Positions 720-19,250 of a DNA stretch of 27,899 bases are shown piece after piece. Source of the stretch: a virus (Duplodnaviria; Heunggongvirae; Uroviricota; Caudoviricetes). Location: IMG/VR virus record IMGVR_UViG_3300042563_002362; one strand, 5' to 3'. The translations under genes and the position numbers were made by a program. Position 1 is the first letter of the stretch. Each line of letters begins with the position of its first letter. The notes under the pieces were generated by a model. The model searched no databases. It was given only the letters and a program-made list of their open reading frames with translations, and was not told the origin of the DNA.

Positions 720-735
720 ATTTCAAAAATCTAAA

Positions 736-804
736 TCGAGTGCTGAAGAATACGGTTACTTCACTTATAAACGAAAAACCCACCGTGTTCGTTTGTTGCC
801 TCGA
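736..804 (+). ncRNA. Y-RNA-like hairpin RNA, family copy 1
   Basis: tcgag/ctcga, GC[T]GA/TTGC bulged helix, gaatacggt/accgtgttc, loop TTACTTCAC..AAACGAAA..CCC; paralog at 1711. Confidence 0.6.
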
Positions 805-808
805 ATAT

Positions 809-1275: not shown

Positions 1276-1285
1276 ATTTCAATAT

Positions 1286-1361
1286 GCACACGTACTTTCA
1301 ATGGCAGATGGTTTGATTGTCAATCAAACGGATGCAGGATCGGTACCTGTCGTGTGCGCCA
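1286..1361 (+). tRNA. tRNA-Asp(GTC), divergent
   Basis: gcacacg/cgtgtgc, gtttga TT-GTC-AA tcaaac, G73, CCA; atypical D and T loops. Confidence 0.7.
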
Positions 1362-1370
1362 CTTTCAAAT

Positions 1371-1447
1371 AGAGCCGTAGCTCAGTTGGTCAGAGCGCTT
1401 GCCTGTCAAGCAAGAGGTCGCGGGTTCAAGCCCCGTCGGTTCTGCCA
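1371..1447 (+). tRNA. tRNA-Asp(GTC)
   Basis: Canonical cloverleaf, CT-GTC-AA, G73, CCA. Confidence 0.93.
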
Positions 1448-1706: not shown

Positions 1707-1710
1707 TTTT

Positions 1711-1785
1711 ATCAAGTGCTGAAGAACAGTGTTACTTCACATGAAACGAAACCCAAACCCAACATTGTTCGCCTATTGCCTTGAT
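1711..1785 (+). ncRNA. Y-RNA-like hairpin RNA, family copy 2
   Basis: atcaag/cttgat, GC[T]GA/TTGC, gaacagtgtt/aacattgttc; stems differ from copy 1 but pairing is kept. Confidence 0.6.
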
Positions 1786-1797
1786 ACTTTCTTTAAC

Positions 1798-8983: not shown

Positions 8984-9023
8984 CTTTCTGTAATAAGAGA
9001 CCTGATCAGAACTAATTTTCAAT

Positions 9024-9101
9024 GGCCGTGTAGCCCAATCGGCAGTAGGCAACAGACTTAAAATCTGTAAAGTGTGGGTTCGAGTCCCACCACGGCTACC
9101 A
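9024..9101 (+). tRNA. tRNA-Leu(TAA), short variable loop
   Basis: acaga CT-TAA-AA tctgt; CCA. Confidence 0.9.
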
Positions 9102-9108
9102 ATTTAAT

Positions 9109-9184
9109 TGGGGTGAGGCTTAATGGTATCAGCTCCCGACTCATAATCGGTGGATAGCGGGTTCGATTCCCGTCGCCCCTACCA
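9109..9184 (+). tRNA. tRNA(CAT), Met or Ile2
   Basis: ccga CT-CAT-AA tcgg; CCA. Confidence 0.82.
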
Positions 9185-9193
9185 AACATCTTA

Positions 9194-9294
9194 GCAGTAG
9201 AGAGGGAAAAGCAACCATGATGGTTGCCGGCGTCCCTCAGAGGGAGTCGTGTTCCTCTTAGTGTAAATGTCAAGACACGAACAAAGCACACTGC
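9194..9294 (+). ncRNA. Orphan multi-hairpin RNA
   Basis: gcagt/actgc; gcaacc/ggttgc; tcgtgt/acacga. Confidence 0.4.
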
Positions 9295-9305
9295 AAAATT
9301 TCAAA

Positions 9306-9338
9306 TCCTGAGTAGCTCAGTGGTAGTAGCGGGAGCCA
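9306..9338 (+). pseudogene. tRNA 5' fragment (acceptor and D arm only) ending GCCA
   Basis: tcctgag tagctcagtggtagtagc ggga gcca. Confidence 0.45.
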
Positions 9339-9347
9339 ATTTTTAAT

Positions 9348-9424
9348 TGTGGGAAGCTAATTGCAGCGATAGACGATTTCTGATCGGACGTCTATGAGAG
9401 GTTTAAGTCCCTGTCTCACAGCCC
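9348..9424 (+). ncRNA. Degenerate tRNA-like RNA with 13-nt anticodon loop
   Basis: tgtggga/tctcaca; atagacg/cgtctat; gg TTTAAGT cc. Confidence 0.45.
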
Positions 9425-9432
9425 TTTCTTAT

Positions 9433-9519
9433 GCCGCAGTCGCATAGTGGTCGATTGCACCGGTTTTGTAAACCGGATTGGAAACAACTCCGTCGGTTCG
9501 AATCCGACCTGCGGCTCCA
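9433..9519 (+). tRNA. tRNA-Thr(TGT) with long variable arm
   Basis: ccggt TT-TGT-AA accgg; ttg-gaaa-caa arm; U73; CCA. Confidence 0.88.
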
Positions 9520-9524
9520 AACTT

Positions 9525-9613
9525 TATGAAGCGACACTCTTGTGTCTAACGGCGGACGTTCAGTTAGTCCGATGATGGCCATCCTGTTGCAAGCAAACTA
9601 TATGTGCTTCATA
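9525..9613 (+). ncRNA. Orphan multi-hairpin RNA
   Basis: tatgaagc/gcttcata enclosing gacac/gtgtc, ggac/gtcc, gatg/catc. Confidence 0.45.
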
Positions 9614-9631
9614 ATTCTTTTCGTGGTGATA

Positions 9632-9764
9632 TATGACAGTTCCTTCTATTGTTACAGATGAGGTGGAGGTTCGAATCCTTCTGCTGCTGCAAAGTGCATA
9701 CCTAAACCGAATGCATTTCGTAGCGGTATAGCTTAATGGTTAGAGCGCGAAAAATACTGTCGTA
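9632..9764 (+). ncRNA. yrlA: YrlA-type Y RNA (circularly permuted tRNA mimic)
   Basis: Order: closing stem tatgacagt, T arm ggagg TTCGAAT ccttc, acceptor-like gctgctgc/gtagcggt capped by a hairpin, D arm gct-taatggtta-gagc, GCGAAAA, closing strand actgtcgta; Ro60 gene in the window. Confidence 0.78.
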
Positions 9765-9781
9765 GCCAGTTCCCGAAACAT

Positions 9782-9857
9782 GCATCTGTAGCTCAGTGGT
9801 TAGAGCACCTCCTTGATAAGGTGGGGGTCGTTGGTTCAAGTCCAACCAGGTGTACCA
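9782..9857 (+). tRNA. tRNA-Ile(GAT)
   Basis: Loop TT-GAT-AA; CCA. Confidence 0.88.
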
Positions 9858-9868
9858 ATTTTCAATAT

Positions 9869-9943
9869 CGGCGCTAAGCTTTAATGGTGAAGCATCAGGT
9901 TTTTACCCTGAGGAACTCGGATCGTTACCGAGAGCGCTGACCA
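9869..9943 (+). tRNA. tRNA-Lys(TTT)
   Basis: tcagg TT-TTT-AC cctga; CCA. Confidence 0.85.
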
Positions 9944-9950
9944 CTTTAAT

Positions 9951-10025
9951 GCTTGTGTAGCTCAACGGTAGAGCACGGAATTCTAACCTCCTGTGGTATG
10001 GGTTCAAATCCCATCATAAGCACCA
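9951..10025 (+). tRNA. Putative amber-suppressor tRNA (CTA)
   Basis: gcttgtg ta gctc aacggta gagc a cggaa TT-CTA-AC ctcct gtggt atggg TTCAAAT cccat cataagc a cca; canonical numbering puts CTA at 34-36. Confidence 0.68.
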
Positions 10026-10033
10026 CTCTCAAA

Positions 10034-10041
10034 GATAAATA
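10034..10041 (+). promoter_or_regulatory. Late-promoter-like GATAAATA
   Basis: One mismatch to TATAAATA, 5 nt before ATG 10047. Confidence 0.55.
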
Positions 10042-10046
10042 CAAAT

Positions 10047-10667
10047 ATGAAAACAAACGCATAGGTACAGAATGTTCTTGATGACATGTCGAGAACTCAA
10101 CAGACGGAAACACAAACGATATTGGATCATGGCTTAAGTGTGTGGTCTTTCTCAGAACGAATCTTGAGGAAGGATACCGATGGCATGAAGATACCAACTT
10201 GGTTCACTGATCATTATGGTTTTATACTTGACAATTTGCATAACGTTGAGATCATCAAAGAATACAACGTAATGCATGATTGTGGCAAGCCATACTGTTT
10301 AGAGATTGACGAGAATGGTAAAAGACATTTTCCTAATCATGCTGCTGTTTCCGAAAGAACTTATCGCGCTTTACCAGATTCCAAAGATGAGGTTGCACGC
10401 CTAATTGGTCTTGATATGTTGTTGCATACTGCAACCGCCGAAGAGGTCAATGCGCTCCGCCTAAGCATCGCTGATGCATTTACTTTGCTCCTAACTGCTT
10501 TCGCTGAAGTTCATTCAAACGCAAGTATGTTTGGAGGTACCGATAGCATATCCTTTAAGTCAAAGTGGAAGAAACTTGACCGAAGAGGTAAGATGTTAGT
10601 TTTAGATTTTTATGGAAGTCGCCCGGATGGACGAGGACACTGTCTTGAAAACAGCTGGGGCCTATAA
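10047..10667 (+). CDS. HD-domain-like phosphohydrolase with in-frame TAG at codon 6 (10062-10064); uninterrupted ORF from 10086
   Basis: ILDHG...MHDCGKPYC...HFPNHA motifs; MKTNA*VQNVLDDM is in frame with 10086; 3' end overlaps tRNA-Ser. Confidence 0.6.
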
Positions 10668-10702
10668 AGCCCTCGTGGGTTCGAACCCCACGGCTTCCGC
10701 CA
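10614..10702 (+). tRNA. tRNA-Ser(TGA)
   Basis: ctgt CT-TGA-AA acag; variable arm; G73; CCA. Confidence 0.9.
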
Positions 10703-10707
10703 ATTTT

Positions 10708-10796
10708 GGGTGTTGCTGAGGTTGGCTCCTCAAACGATTTCGAAAATCGTAGTGACCCTATGAAGGTCAGCGGTTCGATGCCGCCCTCACCCGCCA
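10708..10796 (+). tRNA. tRNA-Ser(CGA)
   Basis: acgat TT-CGA-AA atcgt; variable arm; G73; CCA; imperfect acceptor stem. Confidence 0.8.
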
Positions 10797-10927
10797 CTTC
10801 TCTAAAATGAGGAAATCCCGGACTTTACGGGTAAATATCCGCATAGGCGGCAAATTTTCCCCGAATTTCCTCTTTACGGCCATTTTTCCGCATTTTGAAA
10901 CTTTTTTCACGTTTGTGAATTTTCTTG

Positions 10928-10956
10928 TTTACATTTGCCGCAATTTGGTGTATAAT
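10928..10956 (+). promoter_or_regulatory. Early promoter TTTACA-N17-TATAAT
   Basis: Exact motif 8 nt before ATG 10965. Confidence 0.8.
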
Positions 10957-10964
10957 GGCGCTGT

Positions 10965-11297
10965 ATGGAACCGCTAAACATGAAAACGCTAGCCGATCAG
11001 GTTGCGCGCATTCAGGCGATTTTCGACACGCTTACGCCACATGCGCGTATAAGCACCGATTATGCGCCTGCCGATGACGGGTACCTGTCAATCCCTATCT
11101 TCATTGAGGGAGCTGATCTTGATTACCCAGCATACATTGAATTGGCTCCGCCAGATGATTATGATGAAACAGCTGCGCTTGGCATTGACGCGCAAAACGT
11201 ATTTGAGAAATTTCAATATTCCGCAAATGCGCTGAAGGGCATCAAAGAAAAGCACGCTCGACGCCTGCTTGATTTGGCCGCCGATTATATGCTGTAA
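10965..11297 (+). CDS. Hypothetical acidic protein
   Basis: 110-aa ORF directly after a promoter. Confidence 0.7.
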   Translation: MEPLNMKTLADQVARIQAIFDTLTPHARISTDYAPADDGYLSIPIFIEGADLDYPAYIELAPPDDYDETAALGIDAQNVFEKFQYSANALKGIKEKHARRLLDLAADYML

Positions 11298-11309
11298 TTG
11301 AAAACACAC

Positions 11310-11987
11310 ATGGCAAAAAATATCACAAAAATCATTGATGATTGCGGGAACATTCGTGTCACCCTCAATCAGGTGCATTGGCGCCGTATGCATTGCATTC
11401 AGCGTACATATGCTAGGCTGTTCGGCATTTCCGTAAAGGTGGCCGCTGGCTTGAATCAGTATTTCCATTACAAAGGTGGCGGGTACCCTCGTGAAAATTC
11501 ACCGCCTCGTTATGCTGATGCTGCTGACAAGCTTGCAAACATGTTCATTGGCGCTGATTACATTGGTGAAGGCCATGTAATTAACAAGTACCTTGAGCGT
11601 AATTTCGGGCTTAAGTTGGTGCGCACAAAGGCTGCTCCGCCGCTGAAAATGCGCAAAATCACAAAGGACCTTAACAAGAACTTTGTGGCAGGCAAGCTTG
11701 AGCACCTTAAGGGTATTACCGATCCTCAAGAAATGTTCATTGCACTGTTGCATGAAATGGACGCTACACAAGGCACCATTTGTCAAATGTCCGATCAAAT
11801 CAAGTACACTGGCTTTGCCAATGCTTCAAGCCAAATGAAAAGCGGCAAGCTTAAGAAAAGCTCGTTCTTGAAAATCGTTGGCACAAAGGCAGCTGCAATA
11901 CGCTCGACAATTAAAGGCACGCAGCGTAAGCGTGATTCAATTGACGACGCAGTGCTGATGTGCGACACGCTTAAGGACTGTGTATAA
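11310..11987 (+). CDS. Hypothetical basic protein
   Basis: Long ORF after 10965; ATG at 11310 preferred over TTG at 11298. Confidence 0.72.
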   Translation: MAKNITKIIDDCGNIRVTLNQVHWRRMHCIQRTYARLFGISVKVAAGLNQYFHYKGGGYPRENSPPRYADAADKLANMFIGADYIGEGHVINKYLERNFGLKLVRTKAAPPLKMRKITKDLNKNFVAGKLEHLKGITDPQEMFIALLHEMDATQGTICQMSDQIKYTGFANASSQMKSGKLKKSSFLKIVGTKAAAIRSTIKGTQRKRDSIDDAVLMCDTLKDCV

Positions 11988-11990
11988 ATA
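11983..11990 (+). promoter_or_regulatory. Late promoter TATAAATA for the Ala/tmRNA block
   Basis: Exact motif overlapping the stop codon; followed by hairpin gcggggc-gcaa-gccccgc. Confidence 0.65.
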
Positions 11991-12025
11991 AATTTCAACG
12001 CGGGGCGCAAGCCCCGCTGCATTAT

Positions 12026-12101
<76 letters not shown>

Positions 12102-12107
12102 CTTTAT

Positions 12108-12444
12108 GGGGATGTTTTGGTTTCGACATAATCGGAGAAACAGCATCTGCAATCAAAGGTCTGCACGACCTCTTAAGTGCAAAACAACAAAAGGCGAAAA
12201 TACCTTAGCTCTCGCTGCTTAAGCCGCGATCGTTTGTCAATGACTCCTCTATTTGATAAGCGAACGACAGAGGATATCATGCATAGAGAAATTATGCTAC
12301 GAAGTGTATAAGAGATGATACACTCGGGCGCTGTTCCGTTATGCAGATAGTCAGTAAGATGACAATAAACTCTTAATATGATTGTAGGACAGATGCTGAT
12401 GCACTGGTTGTGGACGCTGGGTTCAACTCCCGCCATCTCCACCA
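12108..12444 (+). ncRNA. ssrA: tmRNA, tag probably (A)GENTLALAA
   Basis: GGGGATG...TTTCGAC 5' end; 3' GGGTTCAACTCCC-GCCATCTCCACCA with G3.U70; internal frame ending gct ctc gct gct taa (12193-12222). Confidence 0.92.
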
Positions 12445-12455
12445 ATTTCTATAAT

Positions 12456-12530
12456 GCGGGTATGGTCTAATGGCTATGACGCGACCTTGCCAAGGTTGAG
12501 ATGAGGTTTCAATTACCTCTACCCGTACCA
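12456..12530 (+). tRNA. tRNA-Gly(GCC)
   Basis: cgacc TT-GCC-AA ggttg; A73; CCA. Confidence 0.88.
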
Positions 12531-12538
12531 CTTTTAAT

Positions 12539-12612
12539 TGCCCATTAGCCTATTGGTAAGGCACATGTCTCTGAAACATGGGAAGAATGTTCGATTCATT
12601 CATGGGCTGCCA
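12539..12612 (+). tRNA. tRNA-Gln(CTG)
   Basis: catgt CT-CTG-AA acatg; G73; CCA. Confidence 0.88.
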
Positions 12613-12620
12613 TTTTATTT

Positions 12621-12741
12621 GCTCCTATAGCTCAGAGGAAGAGCGCATCCTTTTGATAAATATAATTGATGAAAACTTCAATATGTGAAATATGTTTGAG
12701 TATGGATGAGGCCGAGATTTCAAAATTCTCTAGGAGCTCCA
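12621..12741 (+). pseudogene. tRNA-Thr-like gene with a 46-nt insertion in the anticodon loop
   Basis: Intact acceptor gctccta/taggagc, D and T arms, catcc/ggatg stem enclosing 53 nt; U73; CCA. Confidence 0.72.
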
Positions 12742-12746
12742 CTTTC

Positions 12747-12770
12747 GTGCATGTGGTGTAATGGTAATTA
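12747..12770 (+). pseudogene. Duplicated 5' fragment of tRNA-Leu
   Basis: gtgcatgtggtgtaatggtaa nearly identical to gcgcttgtggtgtaatggtaa at 13098. Confidence 0.6.
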
Positions 12771-12793
12771 CATCTATTTAATAAATAACAGAT

Positions 12794-13093
12794 ATGCATC
12801 ACAAACCAAACTCAATATTTGAAGCTGCTTCGCAAATTCTATTTTCTGAAAATCAAGAACAAAAATTTCATCAAGTTCGAATTAAAGAAATTAAGAAGAC
12901 TATTGCTTCAACTGAAGCAGATAAGAAATCTCTTGAATCGATGATTTCCAAAATGGAGAAATCTTTAGCTAAGCTTGTCTCTAATCATGACAAGCTTAAG
13001 GCTAAACTTGATAAGTATAAGACACTTCTAGTCGCTGTTGAAGACGATCCAAATTACAAATTAACTGGGAGTCTCGATGCTCTTAAGTTTTAA
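12794..13093 (+). CDS. Small coiled-coil late protein, possibly a virion internal protein
   Basis: AATAAATA 6 nt upstream; K/E-rich heptads; SIFEAASQIL resembles the N-terminus of 13415. Confidence 0.7.
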   Translation: MHHKPNSIFEAASQILFSENQEQKFHQVRIKEIKKTIASTEADKKSLESMISKMEKSLAKLVSNHDKLKAKLDKYKTLLVAVEDDPNYKLTGSLDALKF

Positions 13094-14712: not shown

Positions 14713-15227
14713 GCGTATATTTTATAGGAGATCCGCATCTAGGGCATAAGAACATCGCTAAGTTCAGACCTTGGGTCAAAAGCACGGCACATAACACCGA
14801 ACTCTTTACGAGCGAATGGGAACGCATGATTAACAAGCGTGACGTTGTTTACATGATGGGCGACGTTGCATTTGATTACCCATCACTTGATCTGATTGGT
14901 AACCTGCCAGGACGTAAGATTCTGATTAAAGGTAATCATGATGACTTTGTACTAACCTCTCGACAGTGCGATGTTTTTGAAGAAATTCATGGCATGCTTA
15001 AGTACAAAGGGATGTGGCTTACGCATGCGCCCATACATCCAGACGAAATGCGTGCACGCAAATGTAACATTCATGGTCACGTTCATAACGCAACAATCAT
15101 GCGTGGATGGGGTCCTTGGCGCAAGCCTGACCCTCGGTACATCAACACGTGCGTAGATGTCCTATGGCCACAACGTAACTCTTTCTTCATCTCACTGGAT
15201 GAAATCAAGAAAATGACAGGTTGTTAA
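14709..15227 (+). CDS. Calcineurin-like metallophosphoesterase
   Basis: GDPH, MGD, KGNHD, THAP, HGHVH motifs. Confidence 0.9.
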   Translation: MSVYFIGDPHLGHKNIAKFRPWVKSTAHNTELFTSEWERMINKRDVVYMMGDVAFDYPSLDLIGNLPGRKILIKGNHDDFVLTSRQCDVFEEIHGMLKYKGMWLTHAPIHPDEMRARKCNIHGHVHNATIMRGWGPWRKPDPRYINTCVDVLWPQRNSFFISLDEIKKMTGC

Positions 15228-15235
15228 TTTTCTCA

Positions 15236-15264
15236 TTTACATCTGACTTATTTTTGATTATAAT
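15236..15264 (+). promoter_or_regulatory. Early promoter TTTACA-N17-TATAAT
   Basis: Exact motif; followed by mini-ORF MKLEINSI (15271-15297). Confidence 0.8.
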
Positions 15265-15305
15265 AAACGTATGAAATTGGAAATCAATTCCATTTGACAA
15301 TTTAA

Positions 15306-15416
15306 TGCCGTGGTGCATGATTCGGTTGCATCAATATAAGAAAAACAACTAGCTGGCAGTGTAACTAAAACCATCTGTCAGCAAAAACAAACCTCCGACT
15401 CAGACTATTCCCGGCA
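15306..15416 (+). promoter_or_regulatory. Structured 5' leader of the vWA-PurA operon
   Basis: tgccg/cggca enclosing tggtgca/tgcatca and gctggcag/ctgtcagc hairpins. Confidence 0.4.
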
Positions 15417-15438
15417 CAACTTCTATTAACCAAACACT

Positions 15439-16699: not shown

Positions 16700-17884
16700 A
16701 TGAAAGCGCAAATTGTAATTGACACCTCTTTTGGTGATGGTGGTAAAGGCCTGACGGTGGATAATCTCTGCCGTCAGGCCGTCCTCCGCGGCGAGTCTGT
16801 AGCAGTTGTTCGCTTTAGTGGCGGTCAGCAATGCGGTCATACTGTTATCCGCGAAGGGATTAAGCATGTCTTTTCTACGTATGGTTCCGGAACTCTTCAA
16901 GGTATTCCTACCTATTATACTGAACATGCGACGATGAGTCTGCAGGCAACACTGACAGAGTATTTTGCTCTGCGTGAAAAGTGTATAGAGCCAAAGCTGT
17001 ATTTCCATCCTCAGACACGTCTCACTACACCATATGATGTTGCTTACAATCGTGCAAAAGAAAGTGCTGCTTACTCTGGCGGTCGTGCAGGTGATGTACG
17101 ACATGGGAGCTGTGGCATGGGAGTTGGCGCTACTCTAAAGCGTCATGACGAAACACCATACAAGATTTATGTAAGCGATTTGCTTTATCCTCAACTATTA
17201 AGACAAAAGCTCGACGGCATTAAAATGTACTATGCACGTAAAGTTCATTCTGAAGCTCTTAATGATAGTGACGGTCTTGGACACGGTCAATCGTTTTACA
17301 GTGCTTTTCATTCTGAAGTAAACGAGCAACTTGAATCTTTCGAAGCAGCTCTTGAACTAAGCAAAGAACATGTCGCGTTTGAAATTGCTAACCTTTACCC
17401 AAACCAATTTCGCAATTTGATCTATGAAGGTTCTCAGGGAGTTCTTCTTGACATGGATCATGGTATCTTTCCAAACGTAACTTACGGTAATACGACGTGC
17501 AAGAACGCAATTGAACATGCGTCGCGCTTGGGTATTCGTGACATCGAATTATTCTATGTGTCGCGTTGCTATCTCACACGTCATGGTCGCGGATGGATGC
17601 CAAATGAAACTGAAATCAAATTGGTCAATACCGATGAAGAGATTAATGTTACTAATCCCTGGCAAGAACATTTACGAATTGGAGAACTTGACTATGATTT
17701 GATTGACTATGCCTTGACGGTTGACAATGGATATCATCGTGATTCCTATCGTCGTAACATGGTGATTACTTGTCTTGATCAACGTCCTGATTGGAAACTT
17801 GACACCACTCGTCTTCCATACTACATTCAAGGAGTCTACACAAATGCATCTCCGCAAGCTGACTCTTGGGTGCTTGCGAAATAA
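16700..17884 (+). CDS. purA: Adenylosuccinate synthetase-like protein (divergent PurA family)
   Basis: FGDGGKG, RFSGG..GHTV, HGSCGMG, EGSQGVLLD, SRCYLTRHG.G. Confidence 0.85.
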   Translation: MKAQIVIDTSFGDGGKGLTVDNLCRQAVLRGESVAVVRFSGGQQCGHTVIREGIKHVFSTYGSGTLQGIPTYYTEHATMSLQATLTEYFALREKCIEPKLYFHPQTRLTTPYDVAYNRAKESAAYSGGRAGDVRHGSCGMGVGATLKRHDETPYKIYVSDLLYPQLLRQKLDGIKMYYARKVHSEALNDSDGLGHGQSFYSAFHSEVNEQLESFEAALELSKEHVAFEIANLYPNQFRNLIYEGSQGVLLDMDHGIFPNVTYGNTTCKNAIEHASRLGIRDIELFYVSRCYLTRHGRGWMPNETEIKLVNTDEEINVTNPWQEHLRIGELDYDLIDYALTVDNGYHRDSYRRNMVITCLDQRPDWKLDTTRLPYYIQGVYTNASPQADSWVLAK

Positions 17885-17907: not shown

Positions 17908-17936
17908 TTTACATCTGTCACATTTTTGATTATAAT
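17908..17936 (+). promoter_or_regulatory. Early promoter TTTACA-N17-TATAAT
   Basis: Exact motif 6 nt before ATG 17943. Confidence 0.8.
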
Positions 17937-17942
17937 AAACAC

Positions 17943-19250
17943 ATGAAAACAAACATTAAGAATACTCCGAAGAACTTCACCCACGAAGGCGCGGTTGCGA
18001 AAAACATCAATGCAAAGCAAGAATTGCGACGCACCGTTATGTCGTGTTTGCTGTGGGAAAATAGTTTCTATGAAAGCGGTGTCGATATCGCTTCACGCAT
18101 CGCAGATCTTGTTCCACGCGTAAGCGGTAAGGAAGCAATGGAGATTGCAATTGAATGTCGATCCTCAATGAAGCTGCGTCATACGCCGCTTTACATTGCT
18201 CGACTTATGGCACAAAACGCGCATCAGCGCGAGTATGTTGCACAGACGTTGTATGCAGTCATCCAGCGTGCAGACGAACTCTCTGAGTTCCTTTCTCTCT
18301 ACTGGAAGAATGGCCGTGTCCCAATTGCTAAGCAGGTCAAGAAAGGTCTTGCGTCGGCGTTCACCAAGTTCAATGAATATGCTCTTGCAAAGTATAATCG
18401 TGATGGTGCAATCAAGCTGCGTGACGTCTTGTTCATGGTACACGCTAAGCCAAAGGATGCCGAACAGGCTGCTCTTTGGAAGCGCCTTGTCAACGACGAA
18501 TTGAAGACTCCAGATACCTGGGAAGTTGAATTGTCGGCTTCGTCTGACAAGAAGGCTTCTTGGACTCGTCTGTTGTCCGAAAATAAGTTGGGTGCATTGG
18601 CGCTGTTGCGTAACCTTCGTAACATGAAGAACGCTGGTGTGGACGACATGCTAATTCGTGACGCATTGCGTAATATCAATGCAGATCGTGTTCTTCCATT
18701 TCGTTTCATCAGTGCTGCGCGTCATGCACCAAGTCTTGAAGCTGAACTTGAAGCTGGTATGTTTAAGTGTTTGGAGGGACACGCTAAGTTGCCAGGTAAG
18801 ACTGTAGTGTTGATCGACGTCTCTGGTTCGATGATTTGGAAGATCAGCGACAAGAGTGACATCAACCGTATTGACACTGCATGTGGACTTGCTATGCTGC
18901 TACGTGAAATTTGTGATACCGTCGAGGTTCATACTTTCTCAACTGCAGTTCGTGAAGTTGCACCACGTCGTGGTTTTGCACTCGCCGAAGCTATCAATCG
19001 TTCTCAGCCATACGGCGGAACTGATCTTGGGCATGCGGTTAAAACGGTCAATGGAATCAACTGTGATCGTCTAATCGTTATCACCGACGAACAGAGCTCG
19101 ACACGAGTTCCAGATCCAGTGTGCAAGAAGAGCTACATGATCAACGTTGCTTCTTACAAGAACGGTGTTGGTTATGGCCCTTGGACTCATATTGACGGTT
19201 GGAGCGATTCAATCGTTACTTACATCCAGGCGCTCGAAAACACGCATTGA
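17943..19250 (+). CDS. rsr: Ro60/Rsr TROVE-domain RNA-binding protein
   Basis: THEGA, ELRRTVMSCLLWE.SFYE, KYNRD...LRDVLFMVH, TPDTWE, ALLRNLRNM, vWA DVSGSM and ITDEQ. Confidence 0.93.
   Translation: MKTNIKNTPKNFTHEGAVAKNINAKQELRRTVMSCLLWENSFYESGVDIASRIADLVPRVSGKEAMEIAIECRSSMKLRHTPLYIARLMAQNAHQREYVAQTLYAVIQRADELSEFLSLYWKNGRVPIAKQVKKGLASAFTKFNEYALAKYNRDGAIKLRDVLFMVHAKPKDAEQAALWKRLVNDELKTPDTWEVELSASSDKKASWTRLLSENKLGALALLRNLRNMKNAGVDDMLIRDALRNINADRVLPFRFISAARHAPSLEAELEAGMFKCLEGHAKLPGKTVVLIDVSGSMIWKISDKSDINRIDTACGLAMLLREICDTVEVHTFSTAVREVAPRRGFALAEAINRSQPYGGTDLGHAVKTVNGINCDRLIVITDEQSSTRVPDPVCKKSYMINVASYKNGVGYGPWTHIDGWSDSIVTYIQALENTH

What the first reader, a model, noticed from the sequence alone, without database searches (positions are those of the whole stretch)
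9632..9764. YrlA-type Y RNA (permuted tRNA mimic) in the tRNA array of a phage that also encodes Ro60
Seen: the tRNA modules are in permuted order (T arm, acceptor-like stem capped by a hairpin, D arm). A 9-bp terminal stem replaces the anticodon arm, and GCGAAAA lies on the 3' strand. Established: this is the YrlA architecture, and bacterial Ro60 (Rsr) binds Y RNAs through a GNCGAAN0-1G-like helix and is linked to RNA decay and repair. Inference: Rsr at 17943 has its own early promoter 8 kb away and forms an RNP with this RNA, which is co-transcribed with the tRNAs.
Basis: partly seen in the sequence, partly recalled or inferred. Interest (0 to 1): 0.88.

Follow-up and report, generated by a model that had tools for sequence, protein, structure and literature searches.

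The report
Phage Y RNA inside a tRNA array
The flagged stretch is a real, conserved small RNA that displays a rearranged tRNA look-alike on a stalk. It belongs to an RNA family that in other phages almost always sits just in front of the Ro60 gene, so it is a further, oddly placed example of a known protein-RNA partnership rather than something new.

Summary
Its order is T arm, capped acceptor-like stem, D arm, closed by a 9-bp stem.

A covariance model built only from RNAs next to Ro60 genes in other phage contigs, with no window rows, scores it 77.4 bits (E 2e-18). The best tandem-tRNA false positive scores 35.8 bits. Over 15 family members 96% of modelled pairs form, and 19 of 27 pairs carry compensatory changes. 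The tRNA 15:48 Levitt pair covaries.

An RNA-only scan of viral contigs gave 27 loci with the RNA. Twenty-five also hold a Ro60 gene, and in 22 it starts 22-704 nt downstream. ORF 17943-19250 is TROVE+vWA, and its closest solved structure is the Thermus phage Ro60 that binds Y-like RNAs.

Rfam's YrlA model gives only 17.5 bits against a threshold of 69.

What is unusual is the position: 8.2 kb from Ro60, inside the tRNA array, ending 3 nt before tRNA-Ile. Binding to Ro60 is inferred, not shown. This scan has noted phage Ro60/Y-like RNA pairs many times on other DNA.

The parts
9619..9778 (+). Whole YrlA-architecture Y-like RNA, about 160 nt from the first to the last base of the outer helix.
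   Evidence: Leave-out model R2 gives 77.4 bits, E 2e-18, over 9616-9781. The minimum-free-energy fold reproduces all helices.
9619..9626 (+). Handle, 5' strand: outer helix H1 UUUCG (9619-9623), bulged U9624, then G9625-G9626.
   Evidence: All five H1 pairs show two-sided changes over 15 sequences. The GG/CC extension is paired in 37/38 and 38/38 rows, with GC>AU three times, GC>CG twice and GC>UA once.
9625..9632 (+). GGUGAUAU: the counterpart of the family's conserved 5' GGYGUAG(A) box and the likely relative of the published GNCGAAN0-1G motif.
   Evidence: Alignments A2, A4 and A5. The motif definition is from PMC4201824.
9632..9640 (+). Closing stem H3, 5' strand (UAUGACAGU). It stands where the 3' strand of a tRNA anticodon stem would be.
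   Evidence: Five two-sided compensatory changes against L009. The five modelled H3 pairs all covary in the family.
9641..9664 (+). V region. It begins UCCUUC (relatives have UUACUUC, the YUAY box), holds a weak 3-bp hairpin (9645-9647 with 9656-9658) and ends with U48 at 9664.
9665..9681 (+). T arm: 5-bp stem and the loop UUCGAAU.
   Evidence: The helix is 100% paired with 4 covarying pairs.
9682..9728 (+). Acceptor-like stem: 9 bp (9682-9690 with 9720-9728), capped by an 8-bp extension hairpin.
   Evidence: L009 has a different sequence but the same 9 bp plus extension. Relatives have 6-8 bp with a small loop.
9729..9746 (+). U8-A9 followed by the D arm (GCUU / AAUGGUUA / GAGC), with A14, A15, G18 and G19.
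   Evidence: A15 with U48 forms the Levitt pair, which is G15:C48 in six relatives.
9747..9755 (+). A-rich linker GCGAAAAAU.
   Evidence: Relatives have GCUAAAAUCU, GCUAAAAAAGA or GUUAAAAUAG here, so CGAA is not conserved.
9756..9764 (+). Closing stem H3, 3' strand (ACUGUCGUA).
9765..9778 (+). Handle, 3' strand: GCCAGUU (family consensus CGCYUGUU), then C9772-C9773, then H1' CGAAA (9774-9778).
9782..9857 (+). tRNA-Ile(GAU). It starts 3 nt after the RNA, so RNase P cleavage at its 5' end would set the Y RNA's 3' end.
   Evidence: The same 3-nt spacing occurs in L009. Processing itself is inferred.
9587..9615 (+). Sigma-70-like site TTGCAA-17-CATAAT just upstream of the RNA.
   Evidence: 9 of 12 matches, which is weak. 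It is absent in L009, where the RNA follows a tRNA by about 12 nt.
17943..19250 (+). Ro60 homolog, 435 aa, with TROVE and vWA domains and an intact DxSxS MIDAS motif.
   Evidence: Pfam TROVE E 1.9e-16; VWA_2 28.3 bits; vWA_Ro60 27.5 bits against a cut-off of 27.7. Matches phage phiLo Ro60 (9KOP/9L5Y) at E 1.3e-24 over residues 13-432.
17908..17936 (+). Promoter-like site TTTACA-17-TATAAT, 6 nt before the Ro60 ATG.
   Evidence: 11 of 12 matches. It belongs to a class with 6 copies in the window against 0.05 expected.
733..807 (+). Short, handle-only Y-like RNA (YrlB-like) between tRNA-Pro and tRNA-Cys.
   Evidence: R2 35.8 bits. Fold z = -2.6. Ortholog at G001 61104-61175.
1709..1787 (+). Second short, handle-only Y-like RNA, a paralog of 733-807, 10 nt before tRNA-Met.
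   Evidence: R2 26.0 bits. Fold z = -3.7. Ortholog at G001 61926-62007.

Best explanation
Window 9619-9778 encodes a non-coding RNA of about 160 nt belonging to the phage family of Ro60-linked Y-like RNAs with YrlA architecture.

Shown here:
- A two-part stalk carries a circularly permuted tRNA-like domain: V region, T arm, capped acceptor-like stem and D arm. The stalk is an outer helix with a bulged U, a conserved asymmetric loop (5' GGYG-UAG, 3' CGCYUGUU), and an inner helix.
- The tRNA elbow contacts are preserved: G18-G19 opposite the T loop, U8-A14, and a covarying 15:48 pair.

Inferred from family-wide gene linkage and from published work on Rsr/YrlA and on Thermus phage Ro60/Yrl RNAs:
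- The conserved handle is the docking site for the phage's own Ro60 (17943-19250).
- The RNP then acts on RNA turnover or quality control during infection, probably by tethering a host exoribonuclease such as PNPase. The tRNA-like module would be the part offered to tRNA-recognising proteins.

Special to this phage lineage: the RNA gene is not in front of Ro60. It lies 8.2 kb upstream, inside the tRNA operon. It is therefore probably made from the tRNA precursor, or from a weak promoter of its own. Its 3' end would be set when RNase P cuts the 5' end of tRNA-Ile 3 nt downstream (inferred).
For: 1. Anatomy can be read directly, and the MFE fold reproduces it.
2. Independent homology: model R2 was built from 13 RNAs lying just upstream of Ro60 genes in eight other contigs, with no window or L009 rows. 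It scores the window RNA 77.4 bits (E 2e-18) and L009 57.3 bits. The best tandem-tRNA false positive scores 35.8 bits.
3. Covariation over 15 members: 96.1% of cells are paired, against 41-49% when partners are slid. Nineteen of 27 pairs change on both sides, and 0 of 500 shuffles reach this. The Levitt pair is A15:U48 in 5 sequences and G15:C48 in 6.
4. Against L009 (77% identity) there are about 14 two-sided compensatory changes.
5. Linkage: all 16 other distinct contigs found through Ro60 carry matches, mostly 1-4 tandem copies, just upstream of the gene. In an RNA-only pattern scan, 25 of 27 loci with the RNA hold a Ro60 gene, and in 22 it starts 22-704 nt downstream on the same strand. 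Cultured phages CcrColossus and Xanthomonas phage Sopo carry 8 or more and 5 copies before their TROVE genes.
6. Rfam YrlA recognises the Ro60-adjacent relatives below threshold but significantly: 39.1 bits (E 4e-5), then 35.5, 32.8 and 32.3.
7. The protein is TROVE+vWA. Its nearest solved structure is phage phiLo Ro60, which binds two Y-like RNAs encoded upstream of its gene and assembles with host PNPase (PMC12135203).
8. Y RNAs in phages, and their tRNA mimicry, are established (PMC4201824).
Against: - Rfam RF02553 gives only 17.5 bits (gathering score 69). In this genome tandem tRNA genes reach 17-18 bits with the same model.
- The published 5' motif GNCGAAN0-1G is not met. The window has GGUGAU and L009 has AGUGAU.
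- The handle of the window/L009 lineage is the most degenerate in the family: 3' AGCCAGUU and AGACUGUU against the consensus CGCYUGUU.
- The YUAY box reads UUCC in the window.
- The RNA lies 8.2 kb from Ro60, outside the 4-kb rule used to define YrlA genes.
- There is no expression, end-mapping or binding datum for this phage.
Confidence: 0.8

Rival explanations
1. The RNA is a Ro60-independent tRNA mimic. Having moved away from Ro60 and weakened its handle, it would now work alone inside the tRNA operon. It might act as a decoy or sponge for host tRNA-targeting nucleases, tRNA-modifying enzymes or RNase P.
For: - It lies 8.2 kb from Ro60 and is embedded among about 40 tRNA genes.
- Its handle deviates most from the family consensus.
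- The tRNA elbow elements are perfectly kept.
- The acceptor-like stem is lengthened in this lineage only.
Against: - Both phages that have the relocated RNA keep an intact Ro60 gene at 89% DNA identity.
- The handle helices are still maintained by compensatory changes.
- In 25 of 27 independently found loci the family travels with Ro60.
- No Ro60-less carrier was seen.
Confidence: 0.12
2. It is a decaying relic: a former YrlA gene, or the inner halves of a tandem tRNA duplication, that is no longer functional.
For: Sequence motifs of the family are degenerate here (GGUGAU, UUCC, AGCCAGUU). The tRNA array around it holds several broken or odd tRNAs, according to other first-reader notes.
Against: - About 14 two-sided compensatory substitutions against L009 keep every helix, which requires selection on structure.
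- The stalk helices H1 and H3 have no counterpart in a tRNA pair.
- It scores 77 bits with a model that holds no window or L009 rows.
Confidence: 0.05
3. It is an artefact: the T arm of one tRNA and the D arm of the next are being read as a permuted tRNA.
For: Tandem tRNAs do give false YrlA-like hits. Examples are window 1285-1428 and 1549-1686 at about 36 bits with my models and 17-18 bits with Rfam. Chen et al. warn of this.
Against: - No tRNA is called on either side within 9520-9781.
- The segment between the T and D arms is one continuous hairpin whose base pairs like an acceptor stem.
- The ends close in two covarying helices.
- Its score is 40 bits above the false positives.
Confidence: 0.02

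Closest known systems
YrlA (Y RNA-like A; Rfam RF02553; Chen et al. 2014, PMC4201824; Salmonella Typhimurium, Mycobacterium smegmatis and 22 phages)
   Same: - Stalk formed by the 5' and 3' ends.
- V region, T arm, closed acceptor-like stem and D arm in that permuted order.
- tRNA tertiary nucleotides, including a covarying 15:48 pair.
- A partner Ro60 gene in the same genome on the same strand.
- A conserved purine-rich box on the 5' strand of the stalk.
   Different: - It fails the Rfam gathering score (17.5 vs 69 bits).
- The 5' box is GGUGAU, not GNCGAA.
- There is an extra outer helix with a bulged U and a conserved 3' CGCYUGUU-CC element.
- The acceptor-like stem is lengthened to 9 bp plus an 8-bp extension.
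- The gene lies 8.2 kb from Ro60 instead of within 4 kb.
Ro60-adjacent Y-like RNA arrays of phages (Caulobacter phage CcrColossus, Xanthomonas phage Sopo and the IMG/VR contigs L010-L025)
   Same: Same family by covariance model (77 bits), with the same handle, V, T, AS and D layout.
   Different: Those RNAs form tandem arrays of 1-8 copies directly upstream of the Ro60 gene. Here and in L009 the copies are scattered through the tRNA array, each followed within 1-10 nt by a tRNA, and other genes lie in front of Ro60.
Thermus phage phiLo Ro60 with Yrl1/Yrl2 (PDB 9KOP, 9L5Y; PMC12135203)
   Same: It is the closest solved relative of the window's Ro60 (E 1.3e-24). It is a phage-encoded Ro60 that binds phage-encoded Y-like RNAs and joins host PNPase.
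   Different: As described in the paper, Yrl1 and Yrl2 are stem-bulge-stem RNAs with a CGAA motif, encoded upstream of the gene. No tRNA-like domain is described in the passages I read. I did not compare their sequences.
Deinococcus radiodurans Yrn1 / Rsr / PNPase (RYPER)
   Same: It is the working model for function: a Y RNA tethers Ro60 to an exoribonuclease, and Yrn1 also has a T-arm-like element.
   Different: The order of the tRNA-like elements differs and the origin is thought to be independent (PMC4201824). It is bacterial, not phage.

Membership tests
YrlA (Chen et al. 2014 / Rfam RF02553) | Score at or above the Rfam gathering threshold (69 bits) | tested here: not met
   17.5 bits, E 0.34 on 271 nt. 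Tandem tRNAs in the same genome score 17-18 bits. Ro60-adjacent relatives reach 32-39 bits.
YrlA (Chen et al. 2014 / Rfam RF02553) | Nearly invariant T-like and D-like stem-loops, in the order T then D | tested here: met
   GGAGG/UUCGAAU/CCUUC at 9665-9681 and GCUU/AAUGGUUA/GAGC at 9731-9746. Both helices are 100% paired across 15 sequences.
YrlA (Chen et al. 2014 / Rfam RF02553) | A closed stem-loop (AS) between T and D, in the place of the acceptor stem | tested here: met
   9 bp plus an extension hairpin, -19.8 kcal/mol. L009 has a different sequence but the same pairing. Ten of 13 relatives have a hairpin of 5-8 bp.
YrlA (Chen et al. 2014 / Rfam RF02553) | V region upstream of T that begins with YUAY | tested here: inconclusive
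   The window reads UUCC. L009 and most relatives read UUAC. The V hairpin here is only 3 bp.
YrlA (Chen et al. 2014 / Rfam RF02553) | tRNA tertiary pairs possible, with a covarying Levitt pair 15:48 | tested here: met
   A15:U48 in the window, L009, L021 (two copies) and L010. G15:C48 in six others.
YrlA (Chen et al. 2014 / Rfam RF02553) | GNCGAAN0-1G near the 5' end | tested here: not met
The window has GGUGAUAU at 9625-9632 and L009 has AGUGAUAU. Relatives have GGCGUAG or GGUGAAAG, one or two mismatches away.
YrlA (Chen et al. 2014 / Rfam RF02553) | Encoded within 4 kb of Ro60 on the same strand | tested here: not met
   Same strand, but the RNA ends at 9778 and Ro60 starts at 17943, 8.2 kb apart. 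L009 shows the same separation.
YrlA (Chen et al. 2014 / Rfam RF02553) | Bound by Ro60/Rsr; T-loop and D-loop modified by tRNA enzymes | not testable with these tools
   No RNA run holds this DNA, and there is no RNA-protein docking tool.
Phage Ro60-linked Y-like RNA family (defined here by model R2) | Full-length match to a model built without the candidate | tested here: met
   77.4 bits, E 2e-18, model positions 1-137.
Phage Ro60-linked Y-like RNA family (defined here by model R2) | Handle: 5-bp outer helix, bulged U, GG/CC, then 5' GGYG box and 3' CGCYUGUU | tested here: met
   UUUCG-U-GG...CC-CGAAA is present and is predicted by the MFE fold. Helix covariation is shown. The loop boxes deviate at 2 of 8 positions on the 3' side.
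Phage Ro60-linked Y-like RNA family (defined here by model R2) | A Ro60 (TROVE+vWA) gene in the same genome | tested here: met
   ORF 17943-19250.
Ro60 / Rsr protein family | TROVE (HEAT-repeat ring) domain followed by a vWA domain with a MIDAS motif | tested here: met
   TROVE 60.8 bits (cut-off 23); VWA_2 28.3 bits (cut-off 27); vWA_Ro60 27.5 bits (cut-off 27.7). DVSGS and TDE motifs align with phage phiLo Ro60 over residues 13-432. No structure was predicted.

The most novel reading that the evidence does not exclude
In this phage lineage the Y RNA genes have been uncoupled from the Ro60 gene and turned into passengers of the tRNA operon. Each copy sits 1-10 nt before a tRNA, so tRNA processing (RNase P, and perhaps RNase Z or E) makes the Y RNA ends. 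Y RNA dosage would then follow tRNA expression rather than Ro60 expression. With its degenerate handle and lengthened acceptor-like stem, the tRNA-like copy may have gained a Ro60-independent job, for example as a decoy for tRNA-directed host defences.
Probability: 0.15. Interest if true: 0.55.

Novelty: new member of a known kind. Interest (0 to 1): 0.35.

Why it matters
Ro60/Y RNA particles are conserved from bacteria to humans, yet their role in phage infection is barely explored. This locus adds a well-supported phage example. It shows that Y RNA genes can lie far from Ro60, so the usual 4-kb neighbourhood searches and the Rfam YrlA model miss them. It also points to a simple route for making their ends through tRNA processing. 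The handle described here is a concrete target for binding studies: an outer helix with a bulged U, a covarying GG/CC step, and conserved 5' GGYG and 3' CGCYUGUU loops. None of this changes the known picture of what such RNAs are.

Tried and rejected
- Rfam at gathering threshold gave no Y RNA in the window or in eight related loci. At the E-value threshold the candidate's YrlA score equals that of tandem tRNAs, so I set Rfam aside as a test for this RNA.
- Megablast of 9000-13000 against cultured phages matched only a tRNA segment.
- I first paired GGYG with CGCY as a 4-bp helix. Broader counting favoured G10-G11 pairing with the CC next to the outer helix, so I replaced that helix.
- L009 has a 350-nt insert between the PurA-like gene and Ro60. 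It holds no Y-like RNA and is a small ORF.
- Sequencing runs: no RNA holder is listed. The DNA is held by lake-water metagenomes that may be its source. I did not lay reads.
- The supplementary tables of Chen et al. 2014, which list the phage YrlAs, are not held. I could not confirm which phages they reported.
- I did not predict the Ro60 structure or attempt a complex, because no tool docks RNA to protein.

Full report
**What is there.** The window is a 27.9-kb piece of a lake-water phage contig (60.5 kb, estimated 28% complete). It carries about 40 tRNA genes and a tmRNA, all on the + strand. The flagged stretch has no tRNA call and no ORF of 60 aa or more.

Read directly, it contains these elements in order:
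- a T arm (9665-9681, loop UUCGAAU);
- a 9-bp acceptor-like stem (9682-9690 with 9720-9728), capped by an 8-bp extension hairpin;
- U8-A9;
- a D arm (9731-9746, loop AAUGGUUA);
- a 9-bp closing stem (9632-9640 with 9756-9764).

Comparison with relatives shows the RNA is longer. An outer 5-bp helix (9619-9623 with 9774-9778) is followed by a bulged U and a GG/CC step. The minimum-free-energy fold of 9616-9781 forms all of these (z = -2.3).

**Rfam test.** Rfam RF02553 is the best family hit but gives only 17.5 bits against a threshold of 69. Over the whole contig the same model gives 17-18 bits to tandem tRNA genes. Chen et al. 2014 warn of exactly this false positive. Rfam therefore says nothing either way about this RNA.

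**Relatives.** ORF 17943-19250 is a TROVE+vWA protein. I used it to fetch 17 related viral loci.
- L009 is the closest, with Ro60 93% identical. It has the same RNA at the same relative place, at 77% identity.
- Between the window and L009, the closing stem has 5 two-sided compensatory changes, the acceptor-like stem 6, the outer helix 2 and the GG/CC step 1. Every helix survives.
- In the more distant loci a permuted T-AS-D element lies directly upstream of the Ro60 gene.
- These elements share with the window RNA a 5' GUGGYG-UAG box, GGUUACUUC, and a 3' CGCYUGUUCCC box.

**Independent model.** I built model R1 from seven sequences and used it to collect 13 RNAs from eight contigs other than the window and L009. 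From these alone I built model R2. The 13 rows were picked and aligned with R1, whose seed included the window and L009 RNAs, so R2 is leave-out in its rows but not fully independent in how they were chosen. R2 scores:
- window 9616-9781 at 77.4 bits (E 2e-18);
- L009 at 57.3 bits;
- the best tandem-tRNA false positive in the window at 35.8 bits.

Rfam's YrlA model recognises the Ro60-adjacent relatives below threshold but significantly: 39.1 bits (E 4e-5), then 35.5, 32.8 and 32.3. This links the family to YrlA.

**Covariation.** On 15 members, 96.1% of cells pair, against 41-49% when partners are slid. Nineteen of 27 pairs change on both sides, and no shuffle in 500 reaches the observed values. 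This alignment was fitted to the model, which favours it, but the margin is large.
- The tRNA Levitt pair covaries. It is A15:U48 in the window, L009, L021 (two copies) and L010, and G15:C48 in six others. Chen et al. reported the same signature for YrlA.
- My first 4-bp GGYG/CGCY helix showed only one-sided changes. In 38 rows the first two G's pair better with the CC next to the outer helix. Those pairs form in 37/38 and 38/38 rows, with GC>AU three times, GC>CG twice and GC>UA once.
- The handle is therefore a 7-bp helix with one bulged U, then a conserved asymmetric loop.

**Link to Ro60.**
- All 16 other distinct contigs found through Ro60 carry matches, mostly one to four tandem copies, upstream of the gene.
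- A scan of viral contigs with an RNA-only pattern, followed by R2, gave 27 loci. Twenty-five hold a Ro60 homolog, and in 22 it starts 22-704 nt downstream on the same strand. The two without a hit have under 600 nt of downstream sequence held.
- Caulobacter phage CcrColossus has 8 or more copies before its TROVE gene, one of them annotated as tRNA-Gln. Xanthomonas phage Sopo has 5.
- The nearest solved structure to the window's protein is Ro60 of Thermus phage phiLo (E 1.3e-24). That protein binds two Y-like RNAs encoded upstream of its gene and assembles with host PNPase (PMC12135203).

GCGAAAA (9747-9753) lies in the linker between the D arm and the closing stem. Relatives have GCUAAAA-type sequences there and L009 has ACGAAAA. 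The published motif GNCGAAN0-1G is a 5'-strand element. Its counterpart here is GGUGAUAU at 9625-9632, which does not satisfy the motif. The window/L009 handle is the most degenerate in the family.

**Expression signals.**
- Ro60 is preceded by TTTACA-17-TATAAT (11 of 12 matches), ending 6 nt before the ATG. This extended promoter type occurs six times in the window, all on the + strand, against 0.05 expected. "Own promoter" is therefore reasonable; "early" is untested.
- The RNA has only a weak sigma-70-like site upstream (9 of 12). L009 lacks it; there the RNA follows a tRNA by about 12 nt.
- In both phages a tRNA starts 3 nt after the outer helix. Co-transcription with the tRNAs and a 3' end set by RNase P are the simplest reading, but they are inferred.

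**Other copies.** The window holds two short handle-only RNAs, 733-807 and 1709-1787. Each is flanked by tRNAs and conserved in L009's contig. There is also a weaker candidate at 15303-15419.

**Verdict.** This is a real, selected RNA with YrlA architecture that belongs to the phage Ro60-linked family. It fails three strict YrlA criteria: the Rfam threshold, the 5' motif and the 4-kb rule. I therefore file it as a divergent relative rather than a member of RF02553. Phage Ro60/Y RNA pairs have been in print since 2014, and this scan has noted them on many other genomes. What is new here is limited to the placement inside the tRNA array and the refined handle.

Noticed in passing
window 733-807 and 1709-1787: Two short (75-79 nt) RNAs have the family's handle but no tRNA-like domain, so they are YrlB-like. 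Their handle step reads GC/GC where the long form has GG/CC, which is a compensatory change. Each sits between two tRNA genes, 1 and 10 nt before the next tRNA. Both are conserved in L009's contig (G001 61104-61175 and 61926-62007).
   Followed up: partly
window 15218-15432: This 215-nt stretch is absent from L009. It holds a near-identical copy of the Ro60 promoter and start (15236-15264, then ATG and a mini-ORF of 8 codons). It also holds a 117-nt RNA candidate (15303-15419) with the handle layout UGCCG-U-GGUG...UAUUCC-CGGCA around an 8-bp hairpin. That candidate scores only 15.7-23.3 bits with my models. It lies 2.5 kb upstream of Ro60 in the leader of the three-gene operon that ends just before the Ro60 promoter.
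   Followed up: partly
window 5400, 10928, 14406, 15236, 17908, 23958 (+ strand): A phage promoter class, TTTACA-N10-TTTTGATTATAAT, occurs six times against 0.05 expected by chance. At Ro60 and at 15236 the ATG follows the -10 box by 6 nt, which suggests leaderless or nearly leaderless mRNAs.
   Followed up: partly
L026 (Caulobacter phage CcrColossus) 242-1439: At least eight tandem Y-like RNAs fill the unannotated 1.2 kb before the TROVE gene. One of them (649-817) overlaps a feature annotated as tRNA-Gln, which is probably the tRNA-like domain of a Y RNA.
   Followed up: partly
L064 7384-7527; L055 279-545: Two exceptions to the usual order. In L064 the Y-like RNA lies directly downstream of Ro60. 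In L055 two copies lie divergently upstream of it.
   Followed up: no
window 9520-9618: A roughly 100-nt spacer lies between tRNA-Thr and the Y RNA. It has no Rfam match and no counterpart in L009, and it contains the weak promoter-like site. Its origin is unknown.
   Followed up: no
window 16700-17884: An adenylosuccinate-synthetase-like gene (Pfam E 1e-36) sits directly before the Ro60 promoter and is conserved in L009. Its role in a phage is unclear.
   Followed up: no
window 12108-12444: A phage-encoded tmRNA (117 bits) lies directly after tRNA-Ala and is conserved in L009.
   Followed up: no
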